Below, in pieces: positions 8,620-57,245 of a stretch of 64,000 nt of DNA. The translations under genes were made by a program, and so were the position numbers. The notes under the pieces were generated by a model. It made no database searches and was not told the DNA's origin. It saw nothing but the letters and a program-made list of their open reading frames with translations. The stretch's first letter is position 1; each line of letters opens with the position of its first letter. The DNA comes from Eledone cirrhosa (taxonomy: Eukaryota): assembly GCA_964016885.1 (NCBI GenBank), contig OZ024741.1, positions 270,692,001 through 270,756,000 on the forward strand, in the 5' to 3' direction.

Positions 8620-10900
8620 CCCCTTAGAGAAACTATTCTTCAATCCAGCTGACAAATCATATCAGATGGGCAATATCTATCCTACGAGGTTACCCTTTAA
8701 TAAAAGTGTGTTTGTATACCACAACAAATAGATGACGAGACAGAGGCACAGTTCACTATAGCTAGAAATAAGATTAGACATATAGTAGACCGATATACTA
8801 AGAGACAAAGCAGAACAGAGGTCCAACAACTTGGAAGGAAACCTGTAGAAGGCTTAGTTAGCCTCAAGCAGCGTACAAGGGATGGTGAGGTAGTATGTCT
8901 ACCCACGGATAAGTCTGTCAATAGACAGCATACCGAACTACATCAAGGCTATGCAATCCCACATCACCAACACGAGCGAAATTACACAGCAAATACATGA
9001 GAGGAGAGAGAAGATCCTCAACGCTCACATGATGATGTGGACCGACATCCTAAAGCCAAGCAGACGCACTGCCAACAACTTCCAGGCATCTAACAATGAC
9101 ATACCACCCTTGTATGGGCTCCGCAAAGACCATAAGACAGTCGACGACCCGACAACAGGATGACCAACAAGACCTGTATGCGGAGCCAATATTGCTAGCA
9201 ACTACAGGATCTCCTACTTCCTCTCAATGGTTATACGCCCCATAATCAAGATGTCCCCAGATGTATGTGACTTCAGAGGACCTCCTCAACAAAAACAAAA
9301 CAAAAACAAAAACCTATCTAACTGCATAATAGGCAGTATGGACGTGGTATCACGACACCCATCCATTAACATTGATTTTGCTGTGGAAAAATGTGTGGAG
9401 ATGATCAGTGAGAGTGAGGTGGAGTTCTGCGACGTCGACACAGACGAACTGGGCCTCCTACTTTGACTTACCTACGACACTGACTACCTAGACAGCCATG
9501 ACCTTAGCCGTTTCTGCCCTAGTAGACCCATAAGAGGTAGAGCCCCCACCATAACCTCCATGGGAAGGTGGATTGGGTGGACCAAAGCCATACGGACCCC
9601 AAAAAACAACGATCAGGTAAGAAAAATGGTCGCACATGCAATAGGGTCTAGTATCAAAACTACCCTAAAGGGCCACATATTCAAATTCAATGAGAAGATC
9701 TACACCCAAAATGAAGGAGCAGCCATTGGCGTCAGCATAGCTGGTGACGTTGCCAACCTTTTTATGGTATGGTGGGAAAGGAGACTCAAAGATATAGTAA
9801 TAAGGACACCCCCACAAGAGAGTACTAACAAGTATGATTTAGAATGTAGCACAATGGAAGGCATATAGCAGATAGCTAATTCCATACACCAGAGTATAAC
9901 TAACTATCGACTACCCTAACAGTAGACTACTTGTATTAGACATGGAACTCTGGATTTACACTATAGACGAGAGGGCCCAAATTCTCCACTCACACTACGT
10001 TAAACCCATAGCCTCCAAATACCTGATACTCAAAAACTCAGCAATGTCCAGTAGTGCTAAGTTTAATATTCTGATCGCAGACTTGGTATGAGTGATGAAG
10101 AACATGTCCCGCATGTGCGACCCAACAAAAATGGAAAGACACATCCAACACTTCATCAACCTCATGCAGTTCTCTGGCTACAACCAAAGAGACAGAATCA
10201 GAGTATATGAAGGAGCCACGGAGAAGTATAAGACCCTCGTAGAACTGGACATGAAAGGAATTTGCCCATTATACAGGAGAAAATCATGGAATAGCTTAGA
10301 TAGGACTAAACATAAGATAGGGAAAGCCACCTCATGGTACGACAACCAGAGATACCAGAGTGTCATGTTCGTGGACGCTACCCCTGGAGGGAAATTAGCT
10401 AACCAGTGTAGAAAGACCGACTTAAAGATTAAGGTGATAGAAAAGTCAGGAACTACCATAAAATCCCTGATCAGCAAAACCTACCCTTTTAAGAAAACCC
10501 ACTGTACCAATAGGAAATGTATCGTATGTAAGGTAAACCCCCGGATAAACTGTAAAACTAGAAACGTAGTCTATAGCATAAGATGTACAGAGGGTTCTTG
10601 CAGAAACATGACAACAACATACATAGGTGAGACAGCTCGTAGCATAGGTGAAAGGATAGACCAACACTGGGGGGGAACTAAAAGGACGAAAAAACGGTTC
10701 AGTACTATACGAACATGCCAGACAACAACATGACAGTAAGATAGACAACATAGAAATTAAAATAATATCTAAACATAGAAATGACCCAGCCGATAGGAAA
10801 ATCAGAGAGGCAAGTGAAATAGAACTTAGAAGGCCAAAGCTAAACAGAAAAAATGAATGGAATAACAAGACCCAAACAAACAATACTGACCTAAGAGAAA
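8620..10900 (+). pseudogene. Decayed Penelope-like retroelement: RT plus C-terminal GIY-YIG endonuclease
   Basis: Fragments LYGLRKDHK, *PTRPVCGA, GSMDVVS..PSI, IFKFNEKIYTQNEGAAIG, and CxxC..CKTRNVVYSIRC..YIGETARSIGERIDQH; stops and frameshifts present. Confidence 0.9.
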
Positions 10901-10989
10901 TATAAATAAATAAATAAATATATACACAAGCACAATAACAACAAACACATATACACACACTAGTAAACTAAACTAAGATAGAATACAAT

Positions 10990-11362
10990 AACACACGACC
11001 GTGACTTCTGGCGTCACGCAGTAATACAGGGTACCCGACCTCCCATGGGTACATGCTGAAGCATATAAACAATATGCCCCCCCCCCCCCCACCGCAAGGT
11101 GGCCGTGGAGGTGCCACGGCAAAAAAGCACCCAGCCCACACTGTAAAGTGGACGTGTAGGCGCCACGAAAAAGCACCCAGCACTCACTGTAAATGAGGTT
11201 GGTGTTAGGAAGGGCATCCAGCTGTAGAAATCAAGCCAGATCAGTTCCTGTATGAGCAAGGCATGGTCAGCCGACCAGACACTGCCCACAACAGGACAAC
11301 CCGTCTAACCCATGCTAGCGTGGAAGAACGGACGTAAAACGGTGATGATGATGATGATGATG
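10990..11362 (+). mobile_element. RTE LINE 3' end with (GAT)n tail inserted in the PLE 3' region
   Basis: Near-identical to 20505-20870 and 53790-54162; ggttggtgttaggaagggcatccagctgtagaaa motif. Confidence 0.85.
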
Positions 11363-11501
11363 AAAACACAGTCACCCAAATGCGAACGCACACCAAACAC
11401 TATACACACACGCAAACGCATGCACAGAGAAGAAGACAAAAATAAATAAATAAACATTAAATATAAATGGCGTAGATATGCAATACAACAGGGGGAACAT
11501 A

Positions 11502-11550
11502 ATAGCACCACTGACGATGTTGCAGATGTGCAATGAAAGAACTGTGTTAG
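11502..11550 (+). ncRNA. Degenerate minimal hammerhead ribozyme in the PLE 3' region
   Basis: tagcacca-CTGACGA-t-gttgca/gatg/tgcaat-GAAA-gaact-gtgtta; cleavage triplet damaged; homologous position to the HHR at 33583. Confidence 0.45.
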
Positions 11551-11857
11551 ATTATATATATGTGTTTGTGTCTATATTATATCTGTATTATTTTACCTTT
11601 GGTCAAACATTGAGGACCAAATAAATTAACTGATATAAAAGATACAGAAGCGAAAACCAACCAAACAGTGAGTATGTTCTGTTATTAATTCTGGTAATAT
11701 TTGTTTCGACACACGATTTCATATAAAAAACCTCGCAAAATATGTGAATATCTATATCTATATGTATATCTATCTATCTATATATGTATATATAGATATA
11801 GATATACATATATATATATATAAAATTAGAATTGGTGCTCTGAAATAGCAATATATA

Positions 11858-27770: not shown

Positions 27771-27801
27771 TATATATATATATATATATCTGTTTACCTT
27801 T

Positions 27802-27842
<41 letters not shown>

Positions 27843-27843
<1 letters not shown>

Positions 27844-28715
27844 TATTAGCAGATCCACTGATCAACCAGATTTGCATATCAGCAGACTGGCCAGCCAGTT
27901 TCATGTATACGAGCAATAAATGGCCGGCTTTGCCACATTCAAATAAAAAAAAATGTTTGCTCTACATGGCTGAATACAATAAATGAATTTTTCGAATATT
28001 AATAATAACATTGGATTCATTTGCAATTATGCAAACAGGCCTCATTTTTAAAGCCAGATCTGCATATAACTGATACCTAGAAACATTAGTGTCTGCAGTT
28101 CTGTTCGCATGCCAACACAAGAGCAAGAATGAAGTGTTCATTCTACTGACATGGCTATAAAATTGAGGCTTGTTTGCAAAATTGCAAACAAATCGAATGT
28201 TACTATTAATATTCGAAAAACTCAGATTACATTTATTGTATTCAGCCATGTAGAGCGAAATTTTCTTTTTTATTTGAATTTGGCAAAGCCGGCCATTTAT
28301 CGCTCGTATACAAGAAACTGACTGGCCAGTCTGCTGATATGCAAATCTGGCTGATCAGTGGATCTGCTAATATGCAGATCTGACTGATCAGCCAAATCAG
28401 GCCAATCAGTCACTATGTATTTTTGAAAATGGCATGTATTTTCACTAGCTCTGACAGTTTGGCAGGTGAACAGTGAACTGTACTGATGAAGGGTGATTCC
28501 CAGAAACAGTGTCTGCAGTTCTGTTTACATGCCAACATAAGAGCAAGAATGAAGTGTTCATTCTCCTGACATGGCTATAAAATTGAGGCTTGTTTGCAAA
28601 ATTGCAAACGAATCGAATGTTATTATTAATCAGTAATACACTGGGTAATTGCTGGCCTCATGCCAAAAGTAGAAACAATTATTAATATTCGAAAAACTCA
28701 GATTACATTTATTAT
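27843..28715 (+). mobile_element. Retrozyme-like non-coding element (family R): inverted stub plus ~1.5 tandem ~423-bp units
   Basis: agaaac..gtgtctgcagttc at ~28079 and ~28502; 27843-28055 is an inverted partial copy; (AT)n on the left flank. Confidence 0.8.
28466..28528 (+). ncRNA. Type I hammerhead ribozyme (family R)
   Basis: gtgaacag-t-gaactgta-CTGATGA-a-ggg/tgatt/ccc-a-GAAA-cagtg-TC-tgcagttc-tgtttac. Confidence 0.75.
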
Positions 28716-28718
28716 ATA

Positions 28719-29870
28719 CTAGCTGAGGTACCCAGCTTCGGCAAGATTAACAAATGATAAGAGAAGACCGGCAGAAGAGAAAACGTCTGTATTGAATGCA
28801 TTGTCTTGTTTTCCATGTGTGTGTGTGTATGTTTGTGTGTGTTTGTGTATATATATGTGTGTGAGTGTTCGTGTGTGTGTATATATATATAGATATAGCA
28901 GTCGGGTTGGTTAGCATACGTGGTATGTCTTTCTTCTTCTTTGGTGTTATAAAATTAGTATCAATAAACTTTCCTGGATATACTCTTATCCCAATCCTGT
29001 ACATACTTTCCGATTGTCACTTTCCATTTTTTTCGTGTGATACACGAAGGAACCAACCAACAAACATCTCTCTTTTATATCTCTTTTATTTGTTCATTCA
29101 AAATATTTTTCAGTTAATTCTGTCGTACAATATACATCAGCAATCGTTATCTAATGTTTAAAACATATGAATAGCTGCGATATATGCACCATATCAATCA
29201 AAAACGATATGAGAATTGAATACCATACTAAAGCGCCAGTAAGCTTGCTAAGAACCTGCAGATAGAAATGTTAATAAATACAACATTTGGCTTGGGTAAA
29301 CTTTAAGATGTTCTTTCATTGTAGGTTTCTTTTCTCAGCCAGTACATTAAAGAAAATTGATAGTTACAACAATAAAGGTTGAACAGAGAACAAATCTGAT
29401 CTTGCGACCAGGGTGGGACTTTTTGGGTGGCATCTTGGCAGTAACAATGACGATAAGCTCTCTGTGCTTTCGTGAAATAAATACGTTTATTTATATTTTG
29501 TTTTTGTGTATGCAAAAATATCTGTACACGAATATATAATTATATATATAAATTAAAATAACAGTTGAAAGTTTAAGCAAAGAATCGCTGCTTTCACCCT
29601 GAACGGGATCTGTGAAACTAAAAAAAATCAATCTGTGAACGCAGAAGTAAATATTTCGAAAAACGTTGCAACCGAAAGAAAACAGGAGGATGATACTTTG
29701 GTTCGTGAAGACGTTAGGAATGTCGTATAACCAGAAAGCTGCAGTTAATATCTTTAGACCGCAAGGAATATATAAATGCAAGTTTGAAGTCAATTGGAGT
29801 AGAAATATGAATTTGTATAGACTTTGCAAAAATGAGGACACACACACAGACAACTTCAGTTTTATATATA
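28719..29870 (-). mobile_element. Non-autonomous Helitron-like element
   Basis: Reverse 3' end ..gggtacctcagCTAG|T; reverse 5' end tatatataaaactgaagttgtctgtgtgtg resembles the other Helitron 5' ends; shares blocks with 22725-22790 and 23420-23770. Confidence 0.6.
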
Positions 29871-30579: not shown

Positions 30580-32872
30580 ACTTCCCAACATAGCCTAGTA
30601 GTTAGTGACCTCACAGTCAGGAATAGACGTACTCGACGACAGAGGAGGCCTACCTTGAGGAGAAGAATATGGCAGTTGAAGGACCCCATAGCCAGTGACA
30701 AATTTAAAAGCTTATTACTTGATGCCTTTGACAATAAGGAAGAGCAATTAGAGACGTGCGATATAGAGGAACAGTGGCAATTGACAGTGAACCTGCTGAA
30801 AGCAACGGATGAAATCTGTGGCTGAAGCAGACCTATTGGCAGGAGGAGAGTAACTTGGTGTTGGAACAGTAAGGTAGAAGAGACAATCAAGGCCAAAAAG
30901 CAGGCTTGGAAAGTATGGCAGGATGGGGGATGTAGAGAGCACTATCAAGTGGCCAGGAGAGAAGTGTACCTTGCAAAAAGGGAAGCAGAGGAAAGAAAGT
31001 TCAAGCATGTTCTACAATGTGAGAACCAAAAACACGATGTGTTCAGGATTGCTAGACAATGTGTCAAGGAAAACCGTGATATTGTCAGGGAGAAGTGTGT
31101 CCGTAATGATAACGGTGTACTTGCCCTCACTGATGCTGATAAGAAGATAGCCTGGAAGTGTCACGATGAGAGACTATTAAATGAGGAGAATAAGTGGGAA
31201 AAAGTTAGTCTGCCCCAAATCGATCCATTAGAGGGACCAGCGGTGCAAGTTAAAGGTAGTATAATAAGTGAGGCAATCAAAGATATGAAGACAGGCAAGG
31301 CAGCTGGGCCTTCGGAGATAGTTGCTGAGATGTTGAAGGCATCTGAAATGGTGGGACATACTATGGTCACCCAGATAGTTAACAGAATGGGGTCATACCA
31401 AAAGACTGGCGTAGCAGCATCATCATTAACTGCTACAAGGGTAAAGGAGATGCTCTAGATAGAGGAATCTATAGAGGCATTAAGTTAGTTGACCAGGTCA
31501 TGAAGGTCACAGAAAGAGTTATAGCGCAACTAATCAGAGAACGAATTAATCTAGATGAGATGCAGTTTGGGTTTGTGTCAGGTAAAAGTACTACAGACGC
31601 TCTTTTCCTTGTACGACAACTACAAGAGAAGTATCTAGCTAAAAGTAAACCCCTCAACTTAGCTTTCGTAGATCTGGAAAAAGCCTTTGACAGTGTCCCT
31701 CGCTCCATTATCTGGTGGGGTCTTAGAAAACTAGGTGTAGATGAATGGCTTGTGAGAGCTATACAAACTATGTATAATGAAACAGTCAGTAAGGTTAGAA
31801 TTAACAATGAATATTGTGAAGAATTTAGTGTAAAAGTTGGTGTTCACCAAGGCTGTGTCCTTAGCCCCCTCCTATTTATTAGTGCCCTTCAGGCTATAAC
31901 AGAGGAGTTCAAGAACGGCTGCCCATGGGAACTCCTATACGCAGATGATCTAACGCTCATAGCTGAATCAATGGCTGAACTAGAAAAGAAATTCCAAACA
32001 TAGAAGCATGGCCTAGAATCAAAAAGCCTTAAAGTTAATTTGTCTAAGACTAAAGTCCTAGTTTGTAGATACCCTCAGGGAAATGGCCCTGCTCAGTGTG
32101 TAGGAAAGGAGTAGGCAGAAATTCAATTTTATGTCCCAAATGCAAAGTATGGGTACATAAAAGATGTAGTGGGATCACAGGTAAACTATCTAAGAACGTA
32201 CACTTTATATGTGGCCAATGCTCAGGTGCAATAAGTAGCAAGTGTCCACAGGTTAGTAGCCCCTTCTATTGCCCAGATGGTTCTATAGAAATAGTAGACA
32301 CTTTCCGTTACCTGAGTGACGAAATCAGCAGTGGGGGAGGATGTTCTGAAAGTACAGTAGCCAGTCAGAACGGGATGGAAAAAGTTCAGAGAGCTTATAC
32401 CGTTGTTGACCACAAAAGGTTTCTCTCTAAAAATGAAAGGCAGATTGTATGATGCTTGTATACGAACAGCAATGCTACATGGCAGTGAGACATGGGCATT
32501 GTGTGCAGAGGACCTGTGCAGATTGGAAAGGAACGAAGCATGCATGTTCCGCTGGATGTGTAATAGTAATATACGTGAACGGCAAAGCATAAATGAAGTA
32601 AGTGAGAAATTAGGAACAAGAGGGATCAAATGCTGTTTACTTGAGAGAAGACTACGTTGGTATTGTTACATGATGCGCATTAAAGACGACAGCTGTATAA
32701 AAAAGAGCAGGGCGATCTAAATTGATGGTAGTTACGGAGTAGGTAAACCCAGAAAAACCTTGGACGATCTGATAAATTCCGACCTCACACACTTGCACCT
32801 CTCTAAGACAATGTCACTGGACCAAGATCTTTGGCGCTACGCAGTAATACAGAAGACCCACCTTGCCTATGT
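30580..32872 (+). pseudogene. Longest RTE LINE copy (linker, RT and PHD-like finger), multiple disruptions
   Basis: KTGKAAGP, MQFGF, FVDLEKAFD, GVHQG, LLYADD, RLRWYC. Confidence 0.92.
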
Positions 32873-32874
32873 AC

Positions 32875-33660
32875 TAGCCTACAAATTTAGAAGGGCCCTA
32901 AATAAACATAAACTCAATATTAAGATAGTAGAAAGACCAGGTACCTCCGTAAAAACACTTATTAGCAAGACATACCCGTTCCAAAGACCCTCATGTATAG
33001 ATAAGAAATGTATAACCTGTAAAATAAGCCCCCATATTAACTGTAAAACAAGAAATGTAGTGTATAGCATAAGATGTACTGAAGGACAATGTAGAAACAA
33101 AAATATAGTGTACATAGGTGAGACAGCTCGTAGTATAGAGGAACGGATAAATGAACACTGGCGAGACCTTCAAGATAATAAAGAATCATCTGTACTCTAC
33201 CAACATGCTAAGATAGAACACAAGGGTAAATTAGAGAACATAGAAATAAAAATAGAATCTACACACAGAAAAGATGCAATGTTTAGACAAATTACAGAGG
33301 CAGTAAACATAAAAGAATTACAACCAAAATTAAATAGAAAATATGAGTGGAACAGCAATATCACAACTTACAATTAAGGACAAAATGAAAATACACACAC
33401 ATATAGAACAAACAACCAACCAACAACATGTAAATAAATAAACAAACAGATAAATGAACACAACACACACACAGACACCCGGATGTGGCGCATGCGCAAA
33501 CTGAGCACACAACACACACACAGAAACAAAATGGCGTAGGACAGAAGAAAGGAAAGGCACAGAAACAAAGAAAGGAATCCCCAGTCACTGAAGAGGTCAC
33601 AGAGTGTGTGACGAAAGGACTATGACTATATATAAACAACTATCTGGTTGTGGAACCAAC
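32875..33660 (+). pseudogene. 3' fragment of a Penelope-like element (GIY-YIG), related to 8620-10900
   Basis: CITC..CKTRNVVYSIRC..YIGETARSIEERINEH..RQITEAVNI..LNRKYEW. Confidence 0.9.
33583..33627 (+). ncRNA. Canonical minimal type I hammerhead in the PLE 3' region
   Basis: agtca-CTGAAGA-g-gtcac/agagtgt/gtgac-GAAA-ggac-TA-tgact; perfect stem I. Confidence 0.85.
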
Positions 33661-33957
33661 CAACCAACCAGAAATTTATAAATTTGTAGATTTGTAAATT
33701 TATAAATTTATAAATATATAATAAATTGAAGTGAAAGCAACTGGTCCGTGTGTTTCTTATTGGCAACATGACCCTCCCAAAGTATAACAATATCGGTTTC
33801 AACACACGATTTCAGATAAAGAATCTTGCTAAACAAATTCAGAAACGAAATATATATATATAAATATATATATATATAAATATATATATATAAATATATA
33901 TATATATAAATATATATATATATAAATATATATATATAAATATATATATATATAAAT

Positions 33958-40842: not shown

Positions 40843-40944
40843 CTCTTTTACCTGCTCTAGGCATCCGGCTGAGGCCATGCTGGGGCACCACCCTTGTTGC
40901 TACACATTCTATCTCCAGCCTGTGTTGGCTGGTCATTGGTGTAA

Positions 40945-41245
40945 GTTTTTTGAATATTAATAATAATATTCGATTCGTTTGCAATTATGCAAACACCCTC
41001 TTTTTTAATATATTTTCACTAGCTCTAACAGTTGGCAGGTGAACAGTGAGCTGTACTGATGAAGGGTGATACCCAGAAACATTAGTGTCCGCAGTTCTCA
41101 TTATATGCCAACACAAGAGCAAGAATGAGGGGCTCATTAAAAAAAGAGGCTGTTTGCATAATTGAAAATGAATCGAATATTATTATAAATATTCAAAAAA
41201 CTCAGATTACATTTATTGTATTCAGCTATGTAGATCGATAACTTT
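40945..41245 (+). mobile_element. Family R fragment with inverted stub; HHR at ~41040-41098
   Basis: gagctgta-CTGATGA-agggtgataccca-GAAA-cattagtg-TC-cgcagttc; 40945-41007 is inverted relative to 41139-41200. Confidence 0.75.
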
Positions 41246-41359
41246 TTAAAAAATAGCTCTATATATCTATATATATGTATGTCCCACCCTTGCAAGCAGG
41301 GAAAAGCGGACATAAAATGATGATGATGATGTATATTTATATACATATTTCTCTCTCTC

Positions 41360-41756: not shown

Positions 41757-41906
41757 TAAACTTTAATCTGTTATTTTAATAAATATGTATATATATATAT
41801 ATATATATATACCCACTCTACTACCCTAAGTATTGAGTACTTTGGTGCGTTATGGTCTATCTGGTTCCTTACCACATTTCCTTCGTTATATATATATATA
41901 TATATA

Positions 41907-41952
<46 letters not shown>

Positions 41953-42261
41953 TATATATATATATATATATATATATTCATATATATATATATATATATA
42001 TATGTATTCATATATGTATATTTATATATATACATATAGATGTATATCTATTTATATATACAGACAAATAGGCAAATATATATAAATGTGTGTATATGTG
42101 TATATATATATTATATATATCTATCTATGTATTTGTATATATATAAGTATATATGTGTGTAAGTATGTATATAAGTATATATGTGTGTATGTATGTATAT
42201 AAGTATATATGTGTGTATGTATGTATATACTTATATATATATATAAATGTATATATATATA

Positions 42262-42308
<47 letters not shown>

Positions 42309-42598
42309 ATATATATATATTTATATTTGTATATATATATAAGTATATATATATATGTATATAAGTATATATATATATAAGTATATATATATATATATAA
42401 AAGTCTATATATATATATGAATGTATATATATATATATAAAAGTATATATATATATATATATATATATATGAATGTATATATATATATATATATATATAC
42501 GTATGTATATACATATATATCTATATGGGTATATAAGTATATATATATGTATATAAATGAATGTATGTATATGTAAATGTATATATATCCATATGTAC

Positions 42599-42637
<39 letters not shown>

Positions 42638-43254
42638 CCATCATAATATGTATGTGCGTGTGTGTCCCCCCATATACATATATCATCATCATCATCATTA
42701 TCTAACGTCCATTTTTCACGCTAGCATGGGTCTGGATATATATATATATATATATATATAGACGTACATACAATTCTGTGCGTGTGTGTAGTTTTATAGC
42801 ATGTCCCATATGTAAGGAAATATCCAATCATATCTTCATTCAGAAGCCTGACATACTTATGGGACACGAGCGATAGGTGTCGTATATATAAATATACTTG
42901 TGTATACTCATGTCTGTATAGGGATTTATCTATCTACATATGTATATATCTATATATAAATATATATTTTATATATATATATAATATATACATTATATAT
43001 ATATATATGTAATGTATATATTTTATAAATATATATGCATTTGTAAGTGTGTATATATATATGCTATAAATAAATATATGTAGGTGTATATATATAATTA
43101 TATATATACATGTATATCTAAATGCATATATATATACATACATATGTGTATATATATATATCTATATGCATATATACATATATATATAATTATATATATA
43201 TATACATGTTTATTTATATACATATATCTACGTGTGTGTATGTATGTATATCCA

Positions 43255-43292
<38 letters not shown>

Positions 43293-43721
43293 GGTCATAT
43301 TTTGCCTCTCCTATATGTAAGTGGGCATGCGTAACAATGTGTTTGATACAAAACGCATTCGATGGTCGTAGATATACCAATACACACACACACACATATA
43401 TATACACACACACGCATATATATAGACATATATTTGTATGTATACACAGGCACATTATATATATACACATAAGCATGTACCCATAGATAGATATATACAT
43501 CACACATATACATTAATGTGTGTGTATATATATATATAAATGTATATATATATACACACACATGCAAATGTATACACACATAAATGTATATATATATGAT
43601 AAATATTTATGATATATATATATATAATGTTATATATATAATATGTTATATAAATATGTGCGTGTATATATATATATATATAAACACATGTGTATATATA
43701 TATATATATATATATAAACAC

Positions 43722-43752
<31 letters not shown>

Positions 43753-43953
43753 AACACATGTGTATTGAGTGCAATTAGACCAGCCACACACAGTAACGAT
43801 ACCATAACTTACCTAATCTCTCGCAGACACAGAGTGACATATTTATAGTTTACACACACATATATATAGTTACACACGCATATATATATAGTTACACACG
43901 CATATATATAGTTACACACGCATATATATATATATATATATATATACCTCTCA

Positions 43954-44024
<71 letters not shown>

Positions 44025-44191
44025 AAATTATTGTGTACAGTGCTCAGGTGCACTACAATAAATATATATATACATATACATATATATCGTTACACATACA
44101 TTTACACGAACACACGTACACACCGATGTACCAAAACAGAGGCGTGTACAACTATATCTACATATAGTATATATATATATAAACACACACA

Positions 44192-44227
<36 letters not shown>

Positions 44228-44698
44228 TATATACATATATATACACTTATATATAAGTGTATATATACTTATATATATATGTATACATATATATATATAT
44301 ATATATATACATACATATATATATATATAAACATATATATATGTATATATATACATACGTATATATATATATAAACATATATATATATAAACATATATAT
44401 ATATATATAAACATATATATATATATATAAACATATATATATATAAACATATATATATATATATATAAACATATATATATGTATATAAACATATATATAT
44501 GTATATAAACATATATATATGTATATATATACATACATATATATATAAACATATATATATGTATATATATACATACATATATATATAAACATATATATAT
44601 GTATATATATACATACATATATATATATATAAACATATATATATGTATATATATACATACATATATGTATATATATACATATATGTATATATATACAG

Positions 44699-44729
<31 letters not shown>

Positions 44730-44734
44730 CATAC

Positions 44735-44767
<33 letters not shown>

Positions 44768-44887
44768 AACACACACACACACAGATATATATACAGATAT
44801 ATACATATATACACTTATATATATATATATATATATATATACACTTATATATATATATACTTATATATATCTAAACATATATATATG

Positions 44888-44919
<32 letters not shown>

Positions 44920-44931
44920 CATATATATATG

Positions 44932-45028
<97 letters not shown>

Positions 45029-45062
45029 ACACACACACACAGATAGATATATATATATACAG

Positions 45063-45096
<34 letters not shown>

Positions 45097-45331
45097 ATAT
45101 ATATATAAACATATATATATGTATATATATATGTATATATATACATATATATACATATATATGTGGTGTGTGTATGCATAGAAATAAATATACCTATGTT
45201 AATACAGTGCCCCGTTCAGATTGGTGACACGTTTTCTCTCCTTATCTCTACTCATGACGAGCAATGCACACACACACGCTTGTGTGTATATATATGTGTA
45301 ATATGTATGTATATATATATGTGTGTGTATG

Positions 45332-45412
<81 letters not shown>

Positions 45413-45493
45413 ATATATATATATGTATGTGTGTGTATATGTATGTGTATATATATATATGTGTGTATATGTGTATATATATATATATGTATG

Positions 45494-45524
<31 letters not shown>

Positions 45525-45805
45525 GTATATTTATATATATATGTATATATATATGTATATTTATATATATATGTATATATATATATATATTTATATATAT
45601 ATGTATATATATATATATTTATATATATATATGTATGTATATATATATATATATATGTATGTATATATATATATATGTATATATATATATGTATATATAT
45701 ATTTATATATATATGTATATATATATGTATATATATATGTATATATATATGTATATATATATTTATATATATATATATATGTATATATATTTATATATAT
45801 ATATC

Positions 45806-45838
<33 letters not shown>

Positions 45839-45871
45839 TTATATATATATGTATATATATGTATATATATT

Positions 45872-45902
<31 letters not shown>

Positions 45903-46065
45903 GTGCATATATATATATGTCATATATGCGTGTGTATATTTATGTATACACATACACACTATATATATATATATATATACACGTATATATATACATACAT
46001 ATATGCGTATACGTTACAGATATATTCATTTTAAGTAATGCATACTTTACATATATATATATATG

Positions 46066-46142
<77 letters not shown>

Positions 46143-46466
46143 AAAATATGCCTGGTGGTCACTGATCTGTCCACTTCGTTTGTCTACCAGCATATCATGA
46201 AAAAAATTATACATTTCTATATATTTTGTCTGAGAACATGTTTTGCTTTATCTTATACATAAAACTTTACATTTTCGAAATATATATAATGAAATAAACA
46301 GAGATGAGATAAAAAGTATATATCTTTCGTTTATTACTATTATACACACACATATATATATATATTAGTATACACATTGCTGATACTACTTTCTCTCTAT
46401 CCATATCGATCAACACATATTTATATAAATATATGTACATACATACATATAAATCATATAAATGTT

Positions 46467-46533
<67 letters not shown>

Positions 46534-46814
46534 TTATTTTATACATATATATATTGGTGTGTATGTTCAGACACACACATGAATATGTATTAGTCGATAG
46601 ATTTTTCTACGCACGCCCGATCCATATTTACAAACACATGTATATACATACATAACCTTACAGCACAGATACATAAACACACACAAATAGTTTCGTTGAA
46701 TGCTTACAAGGTTACTTTTGCGTGTTCGTATATTCACACACACACACACACATATGTATACGTGTGTGTGTACATATATATATATGTGTATGTATATATC
46801 TATATATGTGTGTG

Positions 46815-46845
<31 letters not shown>

Positions 46846-46922
46846 ATGTATATATATGTGTGTGTGTATGTATATATATATGTGTATGTATATATATTAA
46901 TATATATATACATATATATGTA

Positions 46923-46998
46923 TAATGGTGTCCCAAAAAATGTATACTCTTCAGCAGCATTCTAATCAAAGTACGCTTACATTTTTTGTGACACCCTG
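46923..46998. mobile_element. 76-bp Tc1-type MITE remnant
   Basis: ggtgtcccaaaaaatgta / tacattttttgtgacacc inverted ends. Confidence 0.55.
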
Positions 46999-47450
46999 CA
47001 CATATGTATATATATATATAAATATAATATATATATAAATTATATGCACACCTCTATATAAACATGTATACAGATTTCTACGAAGTAATTTCCATTATGT
47101 ATATATGTGTACATATATATATATATATGCGTGTTTGTGTGCGTGTATATATATATATAGAGAGAGAGAGCGCGAGAGAATGTATGTATGATTGCACGTG
47201 TTTGTATGTGTATGAAAGTATGAACAAATACATCGATATGACTGTGTTGATTAGGTAGGTTCTTTTTGGTAGGATACACATATATACACACATGAGCTCT
47301 CTCGTTTTCTCTCTCCACCCTCTCTCTCTCTCTCTCTATTTGTATATATATAGAGAGAGAGACGTGTGTGTGGTTGTGCGCGTAGGCATGTATATATATA
47401 GATGGATATACATACATGTATATATATACATTTATATGTACATACATATT

Positions 47451-47533
<83 letters not shown>

Positions 47534-47547
47534 GCACATACACAGAC

Positions 47548-47612
<65 letters not shown>

Positions 47613-48286
47613 TATATAAACATAGATATACATATACATCCTTGTACATATACATACCTAGATATACATATATATATAATATATATATATATATACACAC
47701 TTATATACATATGTAAATATATAGATTATTAGTTTTGTCGGAGTGGACTAAGACATTTTTAGAGGAATTAAGGTTTAAAATCTCAGGAATATGTAAATAT
47801 ATATATATATATATATACATGAATGTGGGTGTGTGTGTGTGTGTATGCCTTACCAGATTAAAATGTTGACTGACCTATAGTCTCAGGCCTTCAATATACA
47901 AAAGTCCCAAATAATTTCATTATTTGAACTATTTAATTATACGAAAGGGCCCACGAAATTTTCAGCTAGTTACCCCATACAGGTATAATGTGCCCTTGAA
48001 TACATATATACATACAAACACACACATTGCTAGGCCAATGTATACACGATTCACACTAATACGAATATGTCTAGATACACACACACATTATATATATATA
48101 TATATATATATATAATGTATGTATATATATATAATGTATGTATATATATATATGTATGTATATATATATATGTATGTATATATATATATGTATGTATATA
48201 TATATATGTATATATATATATGTATGTATATATAATTGTAAATATATATACATATATATATATATATATGTGTATATATATGTAAG

Positions 48287-48320
<34 letters not shown>

Positions 48321-48381
48321 CATATATATATATATATGTGTAAGTATATATATATATATATATATACAAATATATATATAT

Positions 48382-48424
<43 letters not shown>

Positions 48425-48513
48425 TACATATATATACATATATATATATATATTCAAATATATATACAAATATATATACATATATATATATATACACATA
48501 TATATATATATAT

Positions 48514-48621
<108 letters not shown>

Positions 48622-48725
48622 TCAAATATATATACAAATATATATACATATATATATATATACACATATATATATATATATACAAATATATATATATATA
48701 TATATACACATATATATATATATAT

Positions 48726-48795
<70 letters not shown>

Positions 48796-48899
48796 ATATA
48801 TATACAAATATATATATATATACAAATATATATACAAATATATGTATACAAATATATATTCAAAAGATATATGTACATATATATATACGTGTGTGTGTG

Positions 48900-48936
<37 letters not shown>

Positions 48937-49310
48937 ACATCTATATATATACATATATATATATATTTATACACACATATATATACTTATATATATATAC
49001 ATATATATATATATACATACATATATACATACATATATATATATACATATATATACATACATACATATATATATATATATACTTACACACATATATATAT
49101 ATATACATACATATACATACATACTTATATATACATACATACATTCATGTATATATATATATATATATATTTATATACATAGCTGAGTGGTTCAGGTGAG
49201 CGCTCCAATACCAATGTGGTTTTGGGTTTCGGTCCCGTTACGAGGCAGCTAGAGCAAATGTCTACTACTATATATATAAACCTAATAATATAAGGACGTG
49301 TTTTCGTGCA

Positions 49311-56589: not shown

Positions 56590-57245
56590 TCGCTCTACAT
56601 GGCTGAATACAATAAATGTAATCTGAGTTTTTCAAATTTTTCACATGCCAACACAAGAGCAAGAATGAAGGATTCATTCTACTGACATGCCTCTAAAATT
56701 GAGGCTTGTTTGCATAATTGCAAACGAATTGAATGTTATTATTAATATTCGAAAAACTCAGATTACATTTATTGTATTCAGCCATGTAGAGCGAAAATTT
56801 TCTCTTTTATTTGAATTCGGCAAAGCCGGCCATTTATCACTTGCATACAGGAAACTGACTGGCCAGTCTGCTGTTTTGCAAGTCTGGCTGATCAGTGGAT
56901 CTGCTAATATGCAGATCTGACTGATCAGCCAGTCAGCCAATATGCAAATCAGGCCGATCAATCACTGTGTACTTTTGAAAATAGCATACATTTTCACTAG
57001 CTCTGACAGTTTGGCAGGTGAACAGTGAGCTGTACTGATGAAGGGTGATGCCCAGAAACATTAGTGTTTGCAGTTCTGTTCACATGCCAACACAAGAGCA
57101 TGAAGTGTTCATTCTACTGACATGGCTATAAAATTGAGGCTTGTTTGCATAATTGCAAACAAATTAAATGTTATTAATATTTGAAAAACTAAGATTACAT
57201 TTTTTGTATTCAGCCATGTAGAGCGAAAATTTTCTTTTTTATTTA
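56590..57245 (+). mobile_element. Family R element: inverted stub plus ~1.4 tandem ~439-bp units; HHR at 57018-57083
   Basis: tcacatgccaacacaagagc at 56641 and 57080; gtgaacag-t-gagctgta-CTGATGA-agggtgatgccca-GAAA-cattagtg-TT-tgcagttc-tgttcac. Confidence 0.8.

What the first reader, a model, noticed from the sequence alone, without database searches (positions are those of the whole stretch)
27843..28715. Retrozyme-like family R: ~430-nt non-coding monomers delimited by hammerheads
Seen: three loci (27.8, 40.9, 56.6 kb). Two are 1.4-1.5 head-to-tail units with different start points, and all three begin with an inverted stub. No credible ORF. The HHR has a long stem I and a conserved extra A on each side of stem II. 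Established: retrozymes are tandem HHR repeats processed to circular RNAs. Inference: permuted, greater-than-unit-length inserts fit reverse transcription of a circular or multimeric RNA.
Basis: partly seen in the sequence, partly recalled or inferred. Interest (0 to 1): 0.75.

Follow-up and report, generated by a model that had tools for sequence, protein, structure and literature searches.

The report
Penelope-copied hammerhead repeat, two start sites
A 435-base non-coding repeat with a hammerhead (self-cutting RNA) motif sits at thousands of places in this animal genome, mostly as mirror-image arms ending at two fixed sites about 35 bases apart, so it was likely copied by a Penelope-type jumping-gene enzyme; it is a new member of a known class, and an RNA-circle step remains untested.

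Summary
The repeat and its type I hammerhead are real: three window loci, 1,101 exact core matches genome-wide, a ~435-nt non-coding, strongly folded unit. 5' ends are scattered, but 3' ends are fixed at two sites ~35 nt apart (74 of 85 insertions) and abut (TA)n. In head-to-head insertions one arm ends at each site (30 of 31; 35 of 38). That is the Penelope-like element (PLE) tail and inversion footprint. No copy examined is attached to a coding PLE, and I found no autonomous partner. About 70% of arms reaching the ribozyme run through its cleavage site, with a twofold excess stopping there. Arms exceed one unit but none seen passes ~2.2 units, so a circle is plausible, not shown. None of the three window loci has two complete hammerheads; 10 of 85 insertions do. 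Verdict: a non-autonomous PLE-type (non-LTR retrozyme) family. The class and its PLE link are in print, and this scan already noted the same architecture in 310-, 422- and 467-nt families of this genome.

The parts
27771..27842 (.). (TA)n-rich microsatellite, left flank and likely insertion target
27843..28056 (-). Inverted arm, unit positions about +59 to +285 after the cleavage site; outer end at a minor AT-rich site running into (TA)n
28057..28070 (.). 14-nt filler at the head-to-head junction, resembling the reverse complement of a piece of the unit
   Evidence: read from sequence
28071..28717 (+). Direct arm, ~1.4 units, 5'-truncated inside the first hammerhead, ending at 3' site A (+143 to +148)
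28071..28093 (+). 3' half of a hammerhead (loop 2 remnant, GAAA, stem III, GUC); catalytic CUGAUGA absent
28094..28513 (+). One monomer between predicted cleavage sites (420 nt here; 435 nt in reference dimer L016)
28459..28535 (+). Complete type I hammerhead motif with ~20-bp interrupted stem I; core 28483-28489, extra A 28490 and 28502, 3-bp stem II, stem III loop shortened by 3 nt in this copy; predicted cleavage after 28513
28631..28677 (+). 5'-truncated 3' end of an abundant SINE-like repeat, flanked by ATTATTAAT duplication (28622-28630, 28678-28686); secondary insertion, not part of the unit
40944..41007 (-). Second locus: inverted stub (+65 to +129)
41008..41247 (+). Second locus: 0.55-unit direct arm with one hammerhead (core 41056), ending near site B; 80% identical, older
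56590..56640 (-). Third locus: inverted stub (+115 to +165) abutting (TA)n
56640..57244 (+). Third locus: 1.4-unit direct arm, one hammerhead (core 57035, cleavage triplet mutated to GUU), ending at site B in (TA)n

Best explanation
This is a non-coding 435-base hammerhead repeat (a non-LTR retrozyme) whose copies end at two fixed sites in TA microsatellites and were likely inserted by the reverse transcriptase-endonuclease of a Penelope-like element acting in trans. Inferred steps: the enzyme nicks both strands of a (TA)n target; one nick primes cDNA at internal site A (+135 to +149 after the ribozyme cleavage site) and the other at site B (+163 to +188); both cDNAs run towards the RNA 5' side, stop at variable points and are joined head to head, which gives one arm with the ~35-nt tail and one without. 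Shown: the template was continuous across the cleavage site in most long arms, and a minority of arms stop there. Inferred, about even odds: the continuous template was a ligated circle rather than an uncleaved tandem transcript. The three window copies are likely dead offspring; source copies are likely among the ~12% with two hammerheads.
For: 3' ends at A 48, B 26, other 11 of 85 hammerhead-anchored insertions; 5' ends uniform; 51 of 85 have a head-to-head partner. A+B pairing in 30 of 31 and 35 of 38 pairs with both ends at A or B, against at most 50% by chance (p 1.5e-8, 3.3e-8; the two samples share 12 insertions). 90 of 108 A/B ends abut (TA)3 versus 13% background. These match the PLE tail, inversion and partial tandem (PMC8557442 passages) and the two internal RT start sites and two-strand priming shown in vitro for an anole PLE (PMC11167929). 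61 of 86 arms reaching +20 pass the cleavage site; 22 stop within 15 nt of it versus 11.1 expected (p 0.002; 0.033 after scan correction). Units and arms of one insertion share lineage variants (12.8% and 12.0% discordant at 15 variable sites versus 31-32% for random pairs, 0 of 300 controls as low). RNA-level constraint: monomer z = -8.3; A40-U44 to G-C covariation 215:26; 12 of 19 common variants at paired sites keep the pair versus 26% of rare ones. Coding PLEs with GIY-YIG, hammerheads and TA-abutting ends are abundant in the same genome.
Against: No autonomous partner found: no R-type sequence directly behind PLE coding sequence in ~1.04 Mb of held loci or behind 30 GIY-YIG loci; the young coding PLE in the window has a 59-nt tail and no significant similarity to R (664 and 985 of 1000 shuffles score as well). 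In 18 of 51 and 12 of 50 head-to-head pairs one end is at neither site, and in 2 of 51 both are, including the focal locus. No A-to-G strand bias that would mark passage through RNA (220/18721 versus 218/17022). Against a processive circle: no arm beyond ~2.2 units, and 19 long arms extend only 48 nt on average past the query start where ~250 would be expected (only 40 of 3,920 candidates scored, 30 examined). The pile-up at the cleavage site could be an RT stall at stem I. In the anole PLE, ribozyme cleavage was dispensable and unprocessed RNA was the main substrate in vitro. Cleavage and expression untested.
Confidence: 0.8

Rival explanations
1. Same PLE enzyme, but the template is strictly a hammerhead-cleaved, ligated ~435-nt circle copied round more than once.
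For: Seamless arms longer than one unit (36 of 85); upstream and terminal units of one arm differ no more than the two arms do (119 versus 135 of 2,096 sites, 23 comparisons, p 0.27), as expected if one monomer is re-read; stem I closes the monomer ends; several source lineages persist, which needs a way to regenerate tandems; circles are shown for coral, mussel and axolotl retrozymes.
Against: Arms capped near two units; a few insertions are discordant at 4-5 of 8-10 variable sites; young homogeneous tandem sources or gene conversion give the same concordance; 8 of 9 Xenopus dimers did not cleave in vitro.
Confidence: 0.5
2. Same PLE enzyme, but the template is an uncleaved linear transcript of a partial-tandem source locus; the hammerhead is a weak or protein-gated relic of the PLE terminal repeat and cuts only a minority of RNAs.
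For: Arm length cap near two units; weak ribozyme build (3-bp stem II closed by A.A, short stem III); anole PLE uses unprocessed RNA; PLE hammerheads cleave poorly.
Against: Without circularisation or template jumps arms can only shrink with each generation; no long master array was found among the 30 best dimer-query loci.
Confidence: 0.4
3. The copies are merely 5'-truncated 3' ends (solo pseudo-LTRs) of a coding PLE not yet located.
For: All end features are those of PLEs; about half of 3'-anchored arms stop before the cleavage site.
Against: Arms continue upstream into the same 435-nt unit, never into an ORF, in 85 + 86 loci and 30 long copies; the 56-codon frame opens into no long frame.
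Confidence: 0.07
4. A DNA-level element (MITE, Helitron derivative or satellite) with a chance hammerhead-like motif.
For: Inverted structure; no A-to-G strand bias; no Rfam hammerhead hit.
Against: Variable 5' truncation with fixed 3' ends, A+B asymmetry, full core motif with stems I-III, and at least 11 other multi-copy hammerhead families in the held loci, most with a TA run downstream.
Confidence: 0.03

Closest known systems
Metazoan non-LTR retrozymes (Cervera and de la Pena 2020, PMC7229834: passages and sections 14, 17 read; Li, Clavereau and Pollet 2026, 10.64898/2026.07.22.740005: parts 1-3 of 5 read, supplements not seen)
   Same: Small non-coding, AT-rich, self-paired unit with a type I hammerhead; thousands of copies; coexists with PLEs; both papers propose PLE mobilisation; a mismatch at the base of stem II is described for an axolotl motif.
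   Different: Dispersed two-armed insertions of at most ~2.2 units, not long arrays; fixed A/B 3' ends documented here; circRNA and cleavage untested; no matching PLE pLTR found, unlike 24 of 57 Xenopus families.
EN+ Penelope-like elements (Craig et al. 2021, PMC8557442, passages; Arkhipova et al. 2013, PMC3846280, passages; Frangieh et al. 2024, PMC11167929, parts 1-3 of 4 read)
   Same: 5' truncation, partial tandem, head-to-head inverted copy, 30-40-nt tail at one end, AT-rich or (TA)n targets, hammerhead upstream of the internal start sites.
   Different: No RT or endonuclease frame; unit closes on itself after 435 nt.
PLE hammerhead variants (Cervera and de la Pena 2014, PMC4209133, passages)
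   Same: [quoted passage not shown]
   Different: Second extra A before GAAA (or an A.A pair closing stem II), 3-bp stem II instead of 6-8 bp, and a ~20-bp stem I.
Non-autonomous Chlamys elements such as MRC1 (PMC8557442, one passage)
   Same: Non-coding PLE dependants that form pLTRs and head-to-tail insertions.
   Different: Those resemble autonomous families at the 3' end and their clade lacks canonical hammerheads; here no such partner was found.

Membership tests
Metazoan non-LTR retrozyme | Type I hammerhead in the unit | tested here: met
   Core motif and stems I-III by pattern and fold; no Rfam hit
Metazoan non-LTR retrozyme | Small, low-GC, non-coding, highly self-paired unit | tested here: met
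   435 nt, about 38% GC (from base counts), z = -8.3, no long frame
Metazoan non-LTR retrozyme | [quoted passage not shown] | tested here: met
   Family level: 10 of 85 insertions. Not met at any of the three window loci; no array over ~2.2 units
Metazoan non-LTR retrozyme | Self-cleavage and accumulation as circular RNA | not testable with these tools
   No RNA holder listed; bench test needed
Non-autonomous Penelope-like element | 30-40-nt tail on one end only | tested here: met
   A and B ends ~35 nt apart; 30 of 31 and 35 of 38 pairs are A+B
Non-autonomous Penelope-like element | 5' truncation with head-to-head inverted copy and partial tandem | tested here: met
   51 of 85 with inverted partner; 36 of 85 longer than one unit
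Non-autonomous Penelope-like element | AT-rich or microsatellite target | tested here: met
   90 of 108 A/B ends abut (TA)3 versus 13% background
Non-autonomous Penelope-like element | Sequence homology to the pLTR of a coding PLE in the same genome | tested here: inconclusive
   None found, but only a few PLE families and 30 of 150 scored GIY-YIG loci were examined
Autonomous Penelope-like element | RT plus GIY-YIG reading frame | tested here: not met
   No frame attached in any examined copy
Plant LTR retrozyme | Type III hammerhead in LTRs, 4-bp target duplication | tested here: not met
   Type I topology, no LTR pair, TA-embedded asymmetric ends; definition

The most novel reading that the evidence does not exclude
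A PLE protein dimer bound to one small hammerhead RNA circle primes both strands of a (TA)n break, one subunit obligately at site A and the other at site B, and this family records both ligated circles (read-through arms) and still-cleaved RNAs (arms stopping at the cut); genomic copies would then be a direct readout of how PLE enzymes propagate viroid-like RNAs in animals.
Probability: 0.3. Interest if true: 0.7.

Novelty: new member of a known kind. Interest (0 to 1): 0.38.

Why it matters
Retrozyme mobilisation by PLEs has been argued from co-occurrence and pLTR similarity in the papers read. Here the insertion footprint itself points to a PLE enzyme, and the near-obligate one-A-one-B pairing ties genomic copies to the two internal start sites seen in vitro, giving a 435-nt minimal template for reconstitution. 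The class is known, the family is a few percent diverged and probably past its peak, and earlier notes of this scan describe the same architecture in younger families with longer arrays, which are better test objects for the circle question.

Tried and rejected
Rfam: no hammerhead hit for the locus; the whole-window scan was swamped by microsatellite-miRNA matches (150 of 296 rows shown). Repeat finder swamped by TA arrays. Sequencing runs: no RNA holder listed; two unlabelled contig runs of one study hold the repeat at high depth in a pattern like genomic copy number, not used as evidence on expression. An apparent TCAGAT-N28-CGAAAT match between the R tail and the window's coding PLE was rejected: not significant against shuffles and the tail lengths differ (35 versus 59 nt). 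A-to-G editing scars: none. One R-PLE chimeric junction (L057) is single-copy and could be a later deletion, so not used. Partner searches by tblastn, Pfam GIY-YIG and the 56-aa frame found none; the family of one divergent GIY-YIG fragment (L129) was not followed. A genome-wide count of tandem hammerhead pairs was not obtained, so the array-length limit rests on samples. The first 30 loci were chosen by best match to a 605-nt query and were left out of the end statistics; duplicates were dropped (5 of 90, 4). The insert's SINE identity rests on recalled A/B-box features and its duplicated target; Rfam gave no tRNA hit. Literature searches listed no paper on this family; an octopus repeat annotation (PMC13282606, passages) has no mention of hammerhead, ribozyme or retrozyme in its main text. 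No supplements were read; those of the 2026 preprint and of PMC7229834 may list related elements. The host was not identified here; earlier notes call it a cephalopod.

Full report
Observation. BLAST of 27843-28720 against the window finds two more copies, at 40944-41247 and 56590-57244. Each has an inverted segment joined to the 5' side of a direct arm; the arms at 27.8 and 56.6 kb are about 1.4 units. A type I hammerhead motif lies at 28483, 41056 and 57035, with predicted cleavage after 28513 in the focal copy and a long interrupted stem I. Rfam does not report it. Each window locus has only one complete hammerhead: the upstream one at 27.8 kb begins inside loop 2, and the 56.6 kb triplet is GUU. 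Positions 28631-28677 are a truncated copy of another repeat with a 9-nt duplication.

Family size. The genome (3.0 Gb) holds 1,101 exact matches to a 32-nt hammerhead core and 3,189 to a 31-nt motif near the 3' end, none to the reversed controls. Copies differ from the majority base at 4.4% of aligned sites, so several thousand insertions is my estimate. A natural dimer (L016) gives a 435-nt unit that folds far better than shuffles (z = -8.3), with stem I joining the monomer's ends. Common variants tend to keep pairs (12 of 19 versus 26% of rare variants) and positions 40 and 44 covary (215 A-U, 26 G-C); the structure was predicted from the consensus, which favours that result. The longest ATG frames are short and open into nothing long.

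Ends. I took 90 of the first 100 listed core matches on contig 1, leaving 85 insertions after duplicates. 3' ends fall at site A (+135 to +149 after cleavage; 48) or site B (+163 to +188; 26), 11 elsewhere, 3 or more of these split by the SINE-like insert. 5' ends are uniform round the unit (KS p = 0.21). 51 of 85 have a head-to-head partner arm; where both outer ends are at A or B, 30 of 31 are one of each. 90 of 108 A/B ends abut (TA)3 against 13% background. A second sample anchored on the 3' motif (86 loci, 12 shared with the first) gives 35 of 38 A+B pairs among 50 pairs. This is the PLE pattern: 5' truncation, partial tandem, inverted 5' copy and a 30-40-nt tail at one end (PMC8557442). 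For an anole PLE the tail is the distance between two internal RT start sites, both target strands are nicked and extended, and the protein is predicted to be a dimer (PMC11167929). The inserts are therefore not freely permuted; they start at fixed internal sites.

Template. Of 123 A/B-ended arms, 86 reach +20 and 61 pass the cleavage site: the template was mostly continuous there, either ligated or uncleaved. 5' ends are in excess near the site (22 within 15 nt versus 11.1 expected, p = 0.002; 0.033 when the window is scanned), which fits a cleaved minority or a stall at stem I. Units and arms within one insertion share lineage variants (12-13% discordant versus 31-32%), and upstream versus terminal units differ no more than opposite arms (119 versus 135 of 2,096 sites). 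That fits one monomer read twice, but also homogeneous tandem sources or conversion; a few insertions are clearly mixed. Against a processive circle, the longest arm seen is about 2.2 units and long arms end sooner than a constant stop rate predicts, though later collapse of tandems could cause this. No A-to-G strand bias was found. No RNA holder was listed. I put circle versus uncleaved tandem near even.

Driver. The window holds two broken coding PLEs (GIY-YIG frames at 10092-10733 and 32721-33377). The latter belongs to a young family (39,343 candidates, 150 scored at 96-100% identity) with frames over 1,000 aa, its own hammerhead, and two TA-abutting ends 59 nt apart. Its terminal region is not significantly similar to R. 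No R-type repeat follows PLE coding sequence directly in the held loci or in 30 GIY-YIG loci. The driver is unidentified; tail length is the best handle.

Hammerhead form. The extra base after CUGAUGA is a described PLE feature (PMC4209133); a mismatch at the base of stem II is described in axolotl (PMC7229834). Another family in these loci closes the same position with A-U, A.A or A.C, so the two extra A's are a variant rather than a new motif. Activity is untested.

Comparison and verdict. The family meets the testable features of metazoan non-LTR retrozymes at family level and of non-autonomous PLEs except a located partner. PLE mobilisation was proposed in 2020, circular templates for PLEs in 2014, and pLTR origin argued in 2026. 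Earlier notes of this scan report the same two-armed, fixed-end footprint for other families in this genome (unchecked AI notes, seen after I had reached this reading), none for this sequence. It is a new member of a known kind. What it adds is the near-obligate A+B pairing, a modest stop excess at the cut site, and short arms. Interest 0.38.

Noticed in passing
window 28631-28677; unit positions +103 to +126 in genomic copies: A SINE-like repeat has inserted at the same ATTATTAAT site of the R unit in 14 of 85 and 14 of 86 loci, with different 5' truncations, subtypes and duplication lengths, so mostly independent events; its 3' end matches the site. Twice in tandem in L062.
   Followed up: partly
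window 32877-33850 (+), hammerhead 33588: 3' part of a young, very abundant coding PLE (RT, Cys linker, GIY-YIG), interrupted upstream by a LINE-type RT; two 3' ends 59 nt apart, both in (TA)n.
   Followed up: partly
window 8728-11750 (+), hammerhead-like motif 11511: Older related PLE (43-62% identity to the young family), frame broken, with secondary insertions.
   Followed up: partly
window 15532(-), 34136(-), 36172(-), 27138(+), 35177(+), 60181(-), 63866(+): Further CUGANGA...GAAA motifs of other repeat families; the held loci contain at least 11 other multi-copy hammerhead families, including a five-unit 310-nt array in L104.
   Followed up: partly
L074, head-to-head junction near 2177-2208: Junction filler contains TTAGGG-like repeats, suggesting telomerase-type addition or capture during joining.
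   Followed up: no
L057 about 926 (-): R arm joined at +153 by a short microhomology to the 3' end of a coding-PLE family; single copy in the genome.
   Followed up: yes
window 28151-28318 (+): A 56-codon ATG frame spans both start sites, where PLE frames normally begin; possibly a relic, never extended into a long frame in 150 matches.
   Followed up: yes
L270-L299: 28 of 30 top Pfam GIY-YIG loci showed no hammerhead core within 1.1 kb downstream by my pattern; several PLE-like families here may lack a canonical hammerhead.
   Followed up: no
window 41887-49181: 7.3-kb degenerate TA-rich array with large inverted segments.
   Followed up: no
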